DNA of 64,000 nt, from positions 26,773-90,772 of IMG/VR virus record IMGVR_UViG_3300010157_000047; one strand, 5' to 3'. Made by a program: the position numbers and the translations under genes. The stretch comes from a virus. Every line of letters starts with the position of its first letter. Within the stretch, counting starts at the first letter, position 1. The notes under the pieces are model-generated. The model ran no database searches. It was given only the letters and a program-made list of their open reading frames with translations, and was not told the DNA's origin. Positions 13,941 to 62,097 of the stretch are shown one piece after another.

Positions 13941-13968
13941 AAAAGGGGGGCTCAACCCCCCCCTAATT
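13941..13968. terminator. Bidirectional intrinsic terminator between the convergent gene blocks
   Basis: AAAAGGGGGG-CTCAA-CCCCCCCCTAATTT: a GC hairpin with A/T-rich flanks exactly between two stop codons. Confidence 0.8.
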
Positions 13969-32915: not shown

Positions 32916-35900
32916 TTATGCTTTATTATATTTATTTTTAGTGAATAGTCTGGCTAGAATTGATTTGGTATTTTTAGAATCTACCTCAGATTTACGAGCT
33001 GGACTATCGGTATGCATAATTTTTCTACCTTGAGAATCATATCCATATATATTTTCTAGAGTTTTACGTTGTATATTTTCTTTTCCAATTTCACCCAACC
33101 CTGTTGCAGAAGCAGCTAATCCAGACCTCATGTAACGATCTCTATCGGCACGTTGTTTTTCATTGTATTGCTGTGCTGCCATTGCTGCATCAATTCCCTT
33201 GCCTTTTTGTTCAGCATTAAATCTTTGCGCCTGATTAGCTTGCTCTACATTATATTTAGCGGCATCTGATTTAAGCATTGCATTTTTGCCATATATATCA
33301 CTAAGACCCTCAGATGCAGCTCTTCCACTAACCAATGATGCTCCAGTAAGACCTGATCTAGCTGCTGCTCCAGAACCTCCAGACATGCCGCTAAGTGCAT
33401 TGACCGCAGTTCCATATTGACTACCTAATTGCTCTCTTATTGGGGCTGTAGACAATTGTTGTGCAGCAAGAACTGATGGACTTATTGTTGGATAATTAAC
33501 ATTAGTATTCATTGGAATGCCTCGCCTAGCTGTTAATCCCAATAATGCATTGGTTGTAATTGGCATTTTTCTAAGTCTTTCATCTTGCTTGTTAGATGCA
33601 GCAATAGCAGCTAAATTTGCTGAAGAAAGATTTTCTTTAGAAGTATCTGCAGCAGTGCTTTCTGATGGTCGCGATGCATATCTATTCTTCTCAATATTAA
33701 ATCTATTAATATCAGATTGATATGCTAGATTATTTGGGCTGAGTTCTGCAGTTGATTTTATAGGTAAATTATTAGTATCATATTTTTCAGATGCCATATT
33801 TACTAATTTAGGATTAGAGATTAAATTAGATTGCTGATCTGCAATTGAATTTACATTAGATTTTTGTATATTGGATTTTTTACCATTCATTCTATCAAGA
33901 ACACTAGCTGCATATTCATTAATACTAGGCTCATCCCCCTTGCCTTGCTTTCTATTTAATGCTTCATCATTATACATATTAAATCCTTCTCCAGCATACC
34001 AAGCTTTAGCAGCATTTTCAGGACCATATTTATCGTAATATTGTTTTAATTTATATCTAGCAACTTTTTCTTGATTATCTGGTGTCATAGATGAGCCTTT
34101 AGGAAGACCTGCTTCGCTTGACCATTGATCCCAATTATTAGGCATTATTTGATATTTACCAGCAGCACCAGTTCTTTTATTGGTTTCATTATAATCTCCT
34201 CCAGATTCTTGTCCACCCATTGCAGAAACAAATGAGTTAAATTCATCTGGGCTATTGTTGGCATTAGATGAAGACATTCTGGAGCTGTAATCATTAATTC
34301 CTAGATTTGCTGAAGATACTTGTGGTAAAGAAGAAAAGTCAACATTTGATGCAGATTGATTTGTATATTTTTTGTCAGAATTTTTTAATCTTGATCCAGC
34401 TATACCAGCACCCAATAGTCCAGCACCAAGTAGTCCAGCACTAATCTTATCAGATCGCGTCAACTTATCTGGGTTAATAATAGGTTTAGGAGCTGATTCA
34501 ACACTAGCTGCATCAGCAATAGCCGTGTCCGCAGTTCCCATAGAAGTTGCATCTGGGGCTACAGAAGATGCGGTAGTTTCTGGTTGTAATAATGCCCTAT
34601 TTTTAGCAATTCGTTTTTCAGCGGCAAGATAAGATCTGCTTTTAGCAACATCTTCAGCAGCCATTGGAATGCCAGCTGCACGTTCGGCAGCAACATCAAT
34701 AGGAGATTTAACTGAACTTAATTTATCTAATAAAGTATTATATTTTGTAGCAAATGTAGCTGCCTTATTTGCAGCAATTACACTTGGGTTAGGCGCAATT
34801 TTAGGAGCAACATATTTAAGTCTTTCAGCATTACTCCATATGCCAGGAAGAAATGATTTTTCAGCATTTATACCAGGGAGCATTGCAGCCATAGCAGATC
34901 CTTCATTATCTGCAGTATTGCCAGTTACATAATCATATGCACTGCCAATCATTGGTGTAATCATTTTTGCTGCGCCCCATGGACTAGCTGAGGTAGAGCC
35001 AATTGGAGTACTTAGTACTGACTTTACAGTTGGATATGCATTCCCAAATCTATCAAGTAATTCAGAGCTACTAGGAAGAATTGCCCTGGTATTGATAACA
35101 CTTGGATCTTCAAGAGGCTTATCTCCACCAACATCGTACATTTTCCCACCATTAGCATATCCATTATTTAAATATGGATTACTATTTATTTGTTGCTTTT
35201 GTGGAAAATATTCAACTCGACCTTGATTGTATAATGTATTAGGAACCAATAATCCACCTACTGCATATTGATTTGTCTGACCATCAGGCTGATCAAATTC
35301 AATATCACCACCAAGATCATGTTTCCATTTAGCAGCATTACGTGCAAAGTTAGCCATCTGCCTAACATGTGGATCTGGGCTATGTAATGCTTCTGCAGTA
35401 GTTTTTCCAGTTCTTTCCTTATACGCTGTAAATTTACCACGATTTTCAGGTTTAATATGAATGCTGCCACCTGAACCATAATGAACATTTGAGTCTAGCT
35501 GCATGGTAGGAACACTACCGCCTAATGCATATCTATTATCAGGACCCACTTGTAATCCATCAATAGAACCACCAGTCATATATTGATTGTTGGGTGCTAC
35601 ATATCTAGCATTAATGGTACCGCCTAAATCATGATTATTAATATGATTAGATCTAGCAGAATCGATATAGCTTAATGAATCATACATTGTCTGTGGATAG
35701 TTAGCATCAATTCTGCCTCCCATTTCCATTCTACGAATTGTTTCCAATTGCTGATTGGAAACATTAGTAGGATGAACTAATCCGCCAATAGCTTTATACT
35801 CTTTTGCTTCATCGGATAAATCATTATCTATCAATCCCTTATAATATGATCCATTTGAATTAGGATGATCTTCCTTATAATCCTTAATATGATCAACAGC

Positions 35901-36263
35901 AATTGACTTAGCCAATTTAGTTTGACTAGGGAGTCTACCATTTTTATCCATATAATCTCTTATAAAGTCTAATGTAGGAGCATGTTCTTTCTCTACCTTA
36001 ATACCATTTTTTAATTCACGATTCATAGTGATTTGACCACCATTGGACATTTGGCTTTGATCAGATGGCATACCCTGACGAGCAGTTCCATTATTCATGC
36101 CTTGCATGTTTAATTGTGGAGCATTTTGCGGCTCTGGATTTTGACGTTGCTCATGTTCAAATTGCTCTCTACGGAGTGCATCAAGTTCTGCAATGGCAGC
36201 TTTTTTATTATTACCATGCTTAGCAACAATTGCCTTAGCTCTTTGTGCGAAATTAGTATTCAT
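32916..36263 (-). CDS. Cargo protein (1115 aa) with a lytic transglycosylase-like domain, a DUF5661-like segment and xxGG repeats
   Basis: QESGGDY...GAAGKYQIMP..W...NQEKVA...WYAG (SLT-like); GIKVEKEH...IAVDHI...YYKGL; IHIKPENRGKF...ANFARNAAKWKH crAss motif. Confidence 0.75.
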   Translation of the reverse strand: MNTNFAQRAKAIVAKHGNNKKAAIAELDALRREQFEHEQRQNPEPQNAPQLNMQGMNNGTARQGMPSDQSQMSNGGQITMNRELKNGIKVEKEHAPTLDFIRDYMDKNGRLPSQTKLAKSIAVDHIKDYKEDHPNSNGSYYKGLIDNDLSDEAKEYKAIGGLVHPTNVSNQQLETIRRMEMGGRIDANYPQTMYDSLSYIDSARSNHINNHDLGGTINARYVAPNNQYMTGGSIDGLQVGPDNRYALGGSVPTMQLDSNVHYGSGGSIHIKPENRGKFTAYKERTGKTTAEALHSPDPHVRQMANFARNAAKWKHDLGGDIEFDQPDGQTNQYAVGGLLVPNTLYNQGRVEYFPQKQQINSNPYLNNGYANGGKMYDVGGDKPLEDPSVINTRAILPSSSELLDRFGNAYPTVKSVLSTPIGSTSASPWGAAKMITPMIGSAYDYVTGNTADNEGSAMAAMLPGINAEKSFLPGIWSNAERLKYVAPKIAPNPSVIAANKAATFATKYNTLLDKLSSVKSPIDVAAERAAGIPMAAEDVAKSRSYLAAEKRIAKNRALLQPETTASSVAPDATSMGTADTAIADAASVESAPKPIINPDKLTRSDKISAGLLGAGLLGAGIAGSRLKNSDKKYTNQSASNVDFSSLPQVSSANLGINDYSSRMSSSNANNSPDEFNSFVSAMGGQESGGDYNETNKRTGAAGKYQIMPNNWDQWSSEAGLPKGSSMTPDNQEKVARYKLKQYYDKYGPENAAKAWYAGEGFNMYNDEALNRKQGKGDEPSINEYAASVLDRMNGKKSNIQKSNVNSIADQQSNLISNPKLVNMASEKYDTNNLPIKSTAELSPNNLAYQSDINRFNIEKNRYASRPSESTAADTSKENLSSANLAAIAASNKQDERLRKMPITTNALLGLTARRGIPMNTNVNYPTISPSVLAAQQLSTAPIREQLGSQYGTAVNALSGMSGGSGAAARSGLTGASLVSGRAASEGLSDIYGKNAMLKSDAAKYNVEQANQAQRFNAEQKGKGIDAAMAAQQYNEKQRADRDRYMRSGLAASATGLGEIGKENIQRKTLENIYGYDSQGRKIMHTDSPARKSEVDSKNTKSILARLFTKNKYNKA

Positions 36264-49511: not shown

Positions 49512-49546
49512 AGTTAATTAATTAAAATTTAAAAAAAAAATAGTTA

Positions 49547-60946: not shown

Positions 60947-61246
60947 TTATTTTAATTTTCTAGTATATAATTTAAATGCTATAACAATTTTTCTAAAAAA
61001 TTCTGATATTGCATTAGACTTAGATTTTATTTTAACTTTAATTTGTTTTTCTTCTTCAATAAGATCTTTTATCAATTCAACTTTCCATGAAGAAATATTG
61101 GATTCATCTTTTTTAATATTATCAGATATCAATTTAGATTTATCTTCAACCTTCTTAATTGTTTTTTCGGTAAATATTTCTGCATTGATAACAGATTTTT
61201 CAACATTATCAATAATAACTTTTGTTTTGTCTGTAAGTTTGCTCAT
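60947..61246 (-). CDS. Hypothetical coiled-coil protein (99 aa)
   Basis: Charged helical ORF downstream of the endolysin. Confidence 0.55.
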   Translation of the reverse strand: MSKLTDKTKVIIDNVEKSVINAEIFTEKTIKKVEDKSKLISDNIKKDESNISSWKVELIKDLIEEEKQIKVKIKSKSNAISEFFRKIVIAFKLYTRKLK

Positions 61247-61252
61247 AGGATT

Positions 61253-62097
61253 TTATTTTATATAACGTGAAACTGCATAAATTTTATCTTTACTAATCTT
61301 CTTTCTTCCAACTCTATCGCCATTCCTAGATCCATTTCCACTAGTATTACCAGCTTGAATAATCCAATAGCCACTTTTATCATAAGAATAAAAAAATCCT
61401 ACATGACCTACTCTTTTTAAATATGAATAGTATTCTGTAAAAACATCTCCTGGTAAGGGATCAATACTATTTTTTTTTTAAGTTGCCATATAATATCTTT
61501 AGGATTTGCATATGCTGGAGACCATCCGCTATTGGGATTTTTAATGCTAAAAGATTTCATATCATAAGCAACATATGCACCGCACCAACTAGCAGGTGGA
61601 GTTACCCCAACAGACTTTAAAAATACATCCACCTCTGGACCTCTATTAGGATCCGTTTCACGTATGTTTAACTGAGAGTCAAGTAGATTTATTAATTTAC
61701 TGCGAACATTTGGATTTTCGTCTCCTTTGGCGCTATAAACAAGTCCTGCTATTAATGCAAATACAATAAATAATTTAAATGCATAATCAATTTGTTTAGA
61801 CGGATTCAATTGTTCAAATTTATGATAAAATGCATCTGTAAATACATTATATACTTTAGGCAATGTAATTCTAAGCATAAGATGTGTAGACCAAAATATC
61901 ATAGTATAAGTTAATAATCCATATAGTAATGTTTCAAATTGAGATGCAGGATCGAAAAATGCACTACTAGTAAATATTGATTGAAGAATCCTATTAGCCA
62001 ATAAAAACAATATTGCAATTAATGGTATTAATATTAGTTCTTCTTTAAATATTTTATAAAAATTACTATTGAAAATTTTATCTAAAATGTTTTTCAT
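61253..62097 (-). CDS. Membrane (holin-like) domain fused to a CHAP endolysin, interrupted by a frameshift at an A10 run (61470-61479)
   Basis: Frame 0 has three hydrophobic helices, then RET.PNRGPEVD.FL...SWCGAYV. The -1 frame continues SIDPLPGDVF...VGHVGF...QAGNTSG.GSRNGD.V...SRYIK* (stop 61253-61255), which supplies the CHAP His. Confidence 0.85.

What the first reader, a model, noticed from the sequence alone, without database searches (positions are those of the whole stretch)
61253..62097. Holin-like/CHAP endolysin fusion whose catalytic dyad is split by an A10 slippery run
Seen: the zero frame gives a 226-aa product with three TM helices and the CHAP Cys (WCGAYV) but no His. One extra A, or a -1 shift at CTT-AAA-AAA-AAA-A, yields a 281-aa protein with intact GHVG and AGNT motifs that ends just before the next gene. 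The downstream half has no stops, so it looks maintained. Inference: programmed ribosomal or transcriptional slippage setting the ratio of membrane protein to active lysin, or phase-variable lysis (relevant to the carrier-state lifestyle of crAss-like phages). A homopolymer sequencing error is equally possible. The membrane-domain/CHAP fusion is unusual in either case.
Basis: partly seen in the sequence, partly recalled or inferred. Interest (0 to 1): 0.72.

Follow-up and report, generated by a model that had tools for sequence, protein, structure and literature searches.

The report
Poly-A frame break in phage lysin
The only small cell-wall-cutting enzyme gene found in this crAss-like phage is split by a run of ten A's, and a related phage shares the split while the downstream half stays under selection, so the enzyme is probably made by slippage at the run, although a shared sequencing error is not excluded.

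Summary
The minus-strand gene 61253-62097 reads as 226 aa in the zero frame: three hydrophobic helices plus the Cys half of a CHAP/NlpC-P60-type peptidoglycan hydrolase. It ends 17 codons after an A10 run (61470-61479). The -1 frame opens only inside the run. It has no start codon and encodes the His and Asn half, which is 70% identical to in-frame homologues.

About 30 relatives read through this site in one frame. The only close relative (P0003, 86% identical, a separate ENA assembly) has the same break. All seven amino-acid differences in its zero-frame tail map to third positions of the -1 frame, giving six synonymous changes and one D-to-E. The downstream half is therefore selected across a shared frameshift.

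No other homopolymer of 8 or more bases breaks a gene in this 90.8-kb genome. No downstream RNA structure is predicted.

Best reading (0.57): real recoding, mainly RNA-polymerase slippage from A10 to A11, as in Citrobacter tssM1, giving a truncated membrane protein plus some full-length tethered lysin. Rivals are a shared A11-to-A10 assembly error (0.27), DNA-level phase variation and a pseudogene.

"Holin-like" has no family support, and the TM-CHAP fusion is common in metagenomes. Earlier notes from this scan judged homopolymer breaks in lysis genes of other genomes to be pseudogenes or artefacts.

The parts
61253..62097 (-). Whole lysin gene read across both frames. The 281-aa product needs a -1 (or +2) frame change inside the A10 run.
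61417..62097 (-). Zero-frame ORF of 226 aa: a three-helix membrane module, a linker, the N-lobe of the hydrolase with Cys172, a 17-codon out-of-frame tail, and TAA at 61417-61419.
61723..62097 (-). N-terminal membrane module (about residues 1-125, three hydrophobic helices). It is a separate ORF in relatives L005, L027 and L028. It matches no Pfam or PHROG family.
61582..61584 (-). Codon of the invariant catalytic Cys (WCG motif), upstream of the break.
61470..61479 (-). A10 run (CTT AAA AAA AAA A). It is the slip site and the longest coding homopolymer in the genome.
61478..61480 (-). TAA in the -1 frame (T plus the first two A's). It confines the frame change to the last 8 nt of the run.
   Evidence: read directly from the sequence
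61253..61477 (-). The -1 frame segment (74 codons plus TAA) encoding the beta-sheet C-lobe with His (61403-61405) and Asn (61346-61348). It has no start codon and is 70% identical to the C-terminus of P0004.
60947..61246 (-). Downstream 99-aa charged, coiled-coil-like ORF. It starts 6 nt after the lysin stop and has a weak counterpart in the same position in L024. Function unknown.

Best explanation
The gene encodes a membrane-anchored peptidoglycan hydrolase of the CHAP/NlpC-P60 (TIGR02594-like) kind. It has three N-terminal transmembrane helices, with the catalytic domain most likely on the periplasmic side. In this phage lineage the DNA really carries A10, which puts the His/Asn half of the domain in the -1 frame.

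The full-length 281-aa enzyme is made only from decoding events that change frame inside the run. The most likely route is RNA-polymerase slippage that adds one A (A11) or drops two (A8) in a fraction of transcripts. Ribosome sliding or a -1 shift on A_AAA_AAA may contribute.

Standard decoding gives a 226-aa membrane protein with no catalytic His or Asn. The phage would therefore make a minority of active tethered lysin and a majority of enzyme-less membrane module.

Shown here: the break, its presence in a second lineage, selection on the downstream frame, and the fold and catalytic residues. Inferred: that the run is not an assembly error, the slippage mechanism, the product ratio, the topology, and a role in lysis.
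For: 1. P0003 (ENA, 1474-nt contig, 86% identical) is also 226 aa, with KKK followed by an out-of-frame tail ending at the same stop.
2. The tail is 59% identical against 88% upstream (Fisher p = 0.004). All 7 tail replacements need one change at zero-frame codon position 2, which is -1-frame position 3 (chance about 0.002). The unique most parsimonious DNA reads NSIEPLPGDVFTEYYSYLK in the -1 frame, against NSIDPLPG... in the window, giving 6 synonymous changes and 1 D-to-E.
3. The -1 segment is 70% identical to P0004, while the N-terminal part is 51% identical, so it is not decaying.
4. It has no start codon, so it cannot be made separately.
5. Assembly quality is good. Homopolymer runs of 8-9 lie in frame inside long ORFs of up to 2669 aa, coding density is 92%, and this is the only start-less open frame that overlaps the 3' end of a same-strand gene.
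6. No in-frame close relative exists among 5.8 billion clustered proteins. The exact 226-aa protein is on 3 contigs.
7. The genome avoids uninterrupted AAA runs. Of 12 KKK sites, 10 contain AAG although 80% of Lys codons are AAA. This site is an exception.
8. The break lies in a loop of variable length and sequence, so one Lys more or fewer should be tolerated.
9. No Amidase_2, phage lysozyme, M15_4 or M23 domain is found elsewhere in the genome. The only other hit is an SLT domain inside a 1115-aa virion-type protein.
10. Precedents: the A11 run in C. rodentium tssM1, where transcriptional slippage makes two required length variants (PMC4256274); 12-50% corrected transcripts at poly(A) tracts in endosymbionts (PMC5009743); and ribosome sliding on poly(A) (PMC4363877).
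Against: - No reads were available, so A10 versus A11 cannot be verified.
Its run length and its -1 frame are inferred by parsimony from the protein.
- It is unknown whether the 3 contigs carrying the exact protein are independent.
- Only two lineages carry the break. About 30 more distant relatives are in frame, with A-runs of at most 6 at this site.
- No downstream RNA structure is predicted (z = -0.43 and +0.26), and A_AAA_AAA is a poor ribosomal shift site in E. coli.
- The half-domain on the truncated product has no evident use.
Confidence: 0.57

Rival explanations
1. Assembly or sequencing artefact. The phage DNA carries A11 (or A8) and the gene is an ordinary single ORF. Both metagenome assemblies under-called the same long homopolymer.
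For: A10 is the longest coding homopolymer in the genome, so the clean behaviour of runs of 8-9 does not fully vouch for it. Indel errors grow with run length. All more distant homologues are in frame. Purifying selection on the -1 frame is exactly what this reading also predicts. Earlier notes of this scan include a phage endolysin break judged to be a sequencing artefact.
Against: The same one-base under-call would have to occur in two diverged phages from different archives (JGI and ENA). All 4 contigs carrying these proteins are out of frame, and no in-frame version exists in the protein collection. No other frame break is seen in 87 genes, including ORFs of 2669, 2119 and 1380 codons, which argues against an error-prone long-read assembly.
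Confidence: 0.27
2. DNA-level phase variation. Replication slippage switches the run between A10 (off) and A11 or A8 (on) within the phage population, and the assemblies caught the off state.
For: Homopolymers of this length are hypermutable.
Against: An off-state genome of a lytic phage would lack the only small hydrolase detected and could not release progeny. The off state would therefore be a dead end, not a useful phase. Both lineages, and every contig, show the off state.
Confidence: 0.1
3. Inactivating mutation. The gene is a pseudogene and lysis relies on something else.
For: Homopolymer frameshifts in lysis genes of prophages were repeatedly judged to be pseudogenes elsewhere in this scan.
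Against: This is a terminally repeated crAss-like genome with 92% coding density, not a decaying prophage. Six of 7 inferred substitutions downstream are synonymous in the -1 frame, which has a probability of about 0.001 under neutrality (my arithmetic). The C-terminal part is better conserved than the N-terminal part. No alternative endolysin was found.
Confidence: 0.04

Closest known systems
Citrobacter rodentium tssM1 (and Yersinia pseudotuberculosis tssM): transcriptional frameshifting at an A11 run (Gueguen et al. 2014, PMC4256274)
   Same: A membrane-protein gene is interrupted just after a long poly-A run. There is no SD-like or structural stimulator. Added A's in the mRNA restore the frame, giving a truncated and a full-length form.
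   Different: In tssM1 the mechanism and the need for both forms were shown experimentally. Here nothing has been measured. The run is A10, the gene is a phage lysin, and the truncated form ends inside a catalytic domain.
Poly(A)-tract rescue of frameshifted genes in Buchnera and Blochmannia (cited as B244 in Atkins et al. 2016, PMC5009743)
   Same: An AT-rich genome with a frameshift at a long A run in cell-wall-related genes, where 12-50% of transcripts are corrected by polymerase slippage.
   Different: Those cases are read as tolerated decay in genomes under weak selection. Here the host is a lytic phage, and the state is shared by two lineages with strong selection downstream.
dnaX recoding: -1 PRF at A_AAA_AAG in E. 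coli, and A9 transcriptional slippage in Thermus (PMC5009743)
   Same: A Lys-codon A-run slip site and two products sharing an N-terminus.
   Different: E. coli dnaX has an upstream SD-like element and a downstream hairpin, and neither is seen here. The heptamer here is A_AAA_AAA, which is less shift-prone in E. coli.
SAR (signal-anchor-release) endolysins such as P1 Lyz, phage 21 R and Mu gp22 (PMC9239132)
   Same: An endolysin carrying its own N-terminal membrane segment, exported and tethered independently of a canonical holin hole.
   Different: SAR enzymes have one weakly hydrophobic helix and a lysozyme fold. This protein has a conserved module of about 125 aa with three helices and a cysteine-peptidase fold. 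Release from the membrane is not indicated.
CHAP / NlpC-P60 phage lysins (LysK CHAPK 4csh, LysGH15 4olk, LysIME-EF1 6ist, PlyPy 5udm) and NCBIfam TIGR02594
   Same: Papain-like fold and a conserved Cys...His...Asn. BFVD and PDB fold hits have probability about 1.00. TIGR02594 matches 19 of 20 family members.
   Different: Scores are below the curated cut-offs of Pfam CHAP and TIGR02594. The family has an N-terminal membrane module and belongs to phages of probable Bacteroidia hosts.

Membership tests
CHAP / NlpC-P60 papain-like peptidoglycan hydrolases | Papain-like alpha+beta fold | tested here: met
   An AF2 model of the in-frame homologue P0004 (pLDDT 83) hits NlpC/P60 and CHAP lysins in PDB (probability about 1.0, E 2e-3 to 1e-1) and viral CHAP proteins in BFVD (E down to 4e-7). 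This was tested on a homologue, not on the window's own joined product.
CHAP / NlpC-P60 papain-like peptidoglycan hydrolases | Conserved catalytic Cys and His, plus a polar third residue | tested here: met
   C172, H232 and N251 are invariant in 20 family members. In the window the Cys lies in the zero frame and the His and Asn in the -1 frame. The geometry was not measured.
CHAP / NlpC-P60 papain-like peptidoglycan hydrolases | Score above the curated cut-off of Pfam PF05257 or NCBIfam TIGR02594 | tested here: not met
   The window's two pieces give no Pfam hit. PF05257 reaches only E = 0.002 in 3 of 6 homologues. TIGR02594 matches 19 of 20 with a best E of 3.6e-8. Six-frame scans of the genome with PF05257 and TIGR02594 give no match. 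This is a distant relative, not a member by curated score.
Programmed -1 ribosomal frameshift site | X_XXY_YYZ slippery heptamer in the zero frame | tested here: met
   A_AAA_AAA lies within the run, and the -1 frame is open from the third A.
Programmed -1 ribosomal frameshift site | Stimulatory element: a downstream hairpin or pseudoknot, or an upstream SD-like sequence | tested here: not met
   Folds of the 60 and 100 nt downstream are no better than shuffles (z = +0.26 and -0.43). No GGAGG-like motif is seen upstream.
Transcriptional slippage (reiterative transcription) recoding site | Uninterrupted A or T run of 9 or more, with the frame restored by adding or removing A's | tested here: met
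   The run is A10. A11 or A8 joins the two halves and changes only the number of Lys residues in a variable loop.
Transcriptional slippage (reiterative transcription) recoding site | A heterogeneous mRNA population and both protein products | not testable with these tools
   This needs RNA and protein data from infected cells.
Transcriptional slippage (reiterative transcription) recoding site | Evolutionary conservation of the out-of-frame arrangement | tested here: inconclusive
   It is shared with one 86%-identical relative, with selection on the -1 frame.
SAR endolysin | A single N-terminal weakly hydrophobic signal-anchor-release helix on a muralytic enzyme | tested here: not met
   There are three helices in a conserved module of about 125 aa. 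It may work like an exported tethered lysin but is not a SAR endolysin.
Holin | A small membrane protein of a recognised holin family that controls endolysin access | tested here: inconclusive
   The module, alone or as the stand-alone ORFs of L005, L027 and L028, matches no Pfam or PHROG family. Its occurrence as a separate ORF directly upstream of an exported CHAP gene is suggestive only.
crAss-like phages (Crassvirales) | crAss-type major capsid protein and a genome of about 90-105 kb with giant virion-protein ORFs | tested here: met
   The MCP matches phrog_11589 at E = 1.7e-105 and is 54-59% identical to crAss-like phages including Kehishuvirus. The genome is 90,772 bp with a 123-bp DTR. 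ORFs of 2666, 2117, 1696 and 1425 aa are present.

The most novel reading that the evidence does not exclude
The A10 run is a built-in ratio device for lysis. Standard decoding yields the enzyme-less three-helix membrane module, which related phages encode as a separate gene. Slippage yields a fixed minority of membrane-tethered active hydrolase. One gene would then supply both partners of a holin-like/lysin pair, and the slippage rate would set the timing of lysis in a crAss-like phage.
Probability: 0.25. Interest if true: 0.75.

Novelty: new variant of a known kind. Interest (0 to 1): 0.55.

Why it matters
Lysis control in crAss-like phages is poorly understood, and recoding by homopolymer slippage has so far been documented mostly in bacterial genes, IS elements and endosymbionts. 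My searches of the open literature found no case in a phage endolysin (limited coverage).

If the A10 state is real, this is a lytic phage whose only small wall hydrolase depends on polymerase or ribosome infidelity. That would give a simple, testable way to dose a dangerous exported enzyme. It would also warn annotators not to discard such split genes as pseudogenes or silently "fix" them.

The work also defines a large, uncurated family of membrane-module plus CHAP lysins in phages of probable Bacteroidia hosts, with natural fused and split forms.

Tried and rejected
The DNA of P0003 and the three contigs carrying the exact 226-aa protein therefore could not be read.
- Megablast of the locus against GenBank phages gave no match.
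- The metagenome and genome-collection scans returned only relatives of 54% identity or less to the 226-aa product.
- Pfam and PHROGs on the two separate pieces gave nothing useful.
- The profile search against PDB sequences gave only a marginal hit to PlyPy.
- Separate translation of the C-terminal half was rejected because the -1 segment has no start codon.
- A +1 shift was rejected because that frame is full of stops.
- Stop-codon reassignment was rejected. The genome has long ORFs under table 11, and the problem here is a frame change, not a stop.
- tRNA-based explanations were rejected because aragorn finds no tRNA in the genome.
- The window's own joined product was not folded, because it is not a contiguous translation. 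The closest in-frame homologue was folded instead.

Full report
**What is there**

The window lies in a 90,772-bp IMG/VR virus record with a 123-bp direct terminal repeat. Its major capsid protein is 54-59% identical to crAss-like phages, and it carries ORFs of 2666, 2117, 1696 and 1425 aa. The crAss-like assignment therefore holds.

On the minus strand, ORF 61417..62097 gives 226 aa. It contains hydrophobic helices at about residues 20-38, 54-77 and 103-121, followed by the WCGAYV motif. The reading frame then meets CTT AAA AAA AAA A. This is exactly ten A's, at 61470-61479. The frame continues for 17 more codons to a TAA.

The -1 frame is closed by TAA at 61478-61480, so it opens only inside the run. 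From 61477 it gives 74 residues with GHVG and AGNT, ending at the TAA at 61253-61255. The next gene's ATG follows 6 nt later. The joined product is 281 aa. The +1 frame is full of stops. The -1 segment has no ATG, GTG or TTG, so it can only be translated by a frame change.

**Identity of the protein**

The two pieces alone match nothing in Pfam. In-frame homologues do exist: six proteins of 236-295 aa in the 5.8-billion-protein collection, plus about 30 loci from IMG/VR, JGI metagenomes and Bacteroidia MAG bins. The -1 segment aligns end to end with their C-termini and is 70% identical to P0004. The N-terminal part is only 51% identical.

- The AlphaFold model of P0004 (pLDDT 83) matches NlpC/P60 and CHAP lysins in PDB and viral CHAP proteins in BFVD (E down to 4e-7).
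- NCBIfam TIGR02594 matches 19 of 20 members.
- PHROG endolysin families match a longer member.
- Cys172, His232 and Asn251 are invariant.

The break therefore separates the nucleophile from the His and Asn, and from all of the beta strands.

The family is large: 3288 representative clusters at E of 1e-3 or better. Many of them have the full membrane-module plus CHAP layout, so the fusion is not rare.

In three relatives (L005, L027, L028) the membrane module and the CHAP domain are separate adjacent ORFs. There the CHAP ORF has its own signal or lipoprotein-type leader. This argues that the enzyme works outside the cytoplasmic membrane and that the membrane module can act on its own. "Holin-like" remains unsupported by any family match.

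**Error, decay or recoding**

The run length itself is not surprising: 2 A/T runs of 10 or more were observed against about 2.8 expected. The second one is intergenic, upstream of the capsid gene.

All more distant relatives read through the site. It is a variable Lys-rich loop whose longest A-run is 6, often interrupted by AAG.

The key datum is P0003, an 86%-identical protein from a separate ENA assembly. It is also 226 aa, with KKK followed by an out-of-frame tail ending at the same stop.

- The tail is 59% identical, against 88% upstream (Fisher p = 0.004).
- All seven tail replacements are explained by one change at zero-frame position 2, which is the third position of the -1 frame (chance about 0.002).
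- The unique most parsimonious DNA reads NSIEPLPGDVFTEYYSYLK in the -1 frame, which means six synonymous changes and one D-to-E.

The downstream half has therefore stayed under purifying selection across a frameshift shared by two lineages. This all but excludes a pseudogene.

Several results count against an artefact:
- Homopolymer runs of 8-9 sit in frame inside long ORFs of up to 2669 aa.
- The genome is 92% coding, and this is the only start-less open frame that overlaps the 3' end of a same-strand gene.
- No in-frame close relative exists in the protein collection, and the exact 226-aa protein occurs on three contigs.
- The genome otherwise avoids uninterrupted AAA runs. Of 12 KKK sites, 10 contain AAG although 80% of Lys codons are AAA.

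No other small wall hydrolase was found. The only other hit is an SLT domain inside a 1115-aa virion-type protein. A lytic phage would therefore need this gene.

**Mechanism**

No downstream RNA structure is predicted, there is no SD-like element, and A_AAA_AAA is a weak ribosomal shift site in E. coli. Runs of nine or more A's are known sites of RNA-polymerase slippage:
- The A11 run in C. rodentium tssM1 gives transcripts with 10-15 A's and two required protein forms.
- Endosymbiont poly(A) tracts give 12-50% corrected transcripts.
- Ribosomes also slide on poly(A).

A11 or A8 in the mRNA would restore the frame and change only the number of Lys residues in a tolerant loop.

My best reading (0.57) is real recoding, mainly transcriptional. 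It would yield mostly a truncated membrane protein and a minority of active tethered lysin.

**Caveats**

No reads were available. Only two lineages carry the break. A shared A11-to-A10 under-call remains possible (0.27). Earlier notes from this scan judged similar breaks in lysis genes of other genomes to be pseudogenes or artefacts. Those cases were decaying prophages or error-rich assemblies, which this genome is not.

Noticed in passing
L005:3001-3914, L027:482-1470, L028:49-1096: Natural split forms of the family. The three-helix membrane module and the CHAP domain are adjacent separate ORFs, and the CHAP ORF starts with its own signal peptide. L027 has a lipobox-like IIGC and L028 has NNGC.
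   Followed up: partly
window 33975-34235 (inside ORF 32916-36263, minus strand): An SLT lytic-transglycosylase domain (PF01464, 25.5 bits, above the cut-off) sits inside a 1115-aa protein of the virion block. It is probably an entry enzyme and not the endolysin.
   Followed up: no
window 49531-49540: This is the only other 10-base homopolymer in the genome. It reads as T10 in the sense of the genes and is intergenic, ending 19 nt upstream of the major capsid protein ATG. It could be part of a terminator or an upstream element.
   Followed up: partly
window 13945-13963: G6 and C8 runs 5 nt apart, in the gap between the plus-strand block and the 1377-aa minus-strand ORF. They look like a GC hairpin terminator between convergent blocks.
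   Followed up: no
whole genome: Of 12 KKK tripeptides in coding regions, 10 are interrupted by AAG although AAA makes up 80% of Lys codons. By my binomial arithmetic, 2 or fewer all-AAA sites has p of about 0.016. This suggests selection against long coding A-runs in this phage.
   Followed up: yes
P0014 and about 25 other representatives of 400-480 aa: A subgroup of the family carries an extra C-terminal extension of about 150 aa after the CHAP domain. Its nature was not examined.
   Followed up: no
genome 1513-4965 (outside the window, upstream of it): About 3 kb with no ORF of 60 aa or more and no tRNA. This is unusual for a genome that is 92% coding.
   Followed up: no
L032-L034: Family members lie on contigs binned into uncultured Bacteroidia/Bacteroidales MAGs, according to the record titles. 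This is consistent with a Bacteroidia host for these phages.
   Followed up: no
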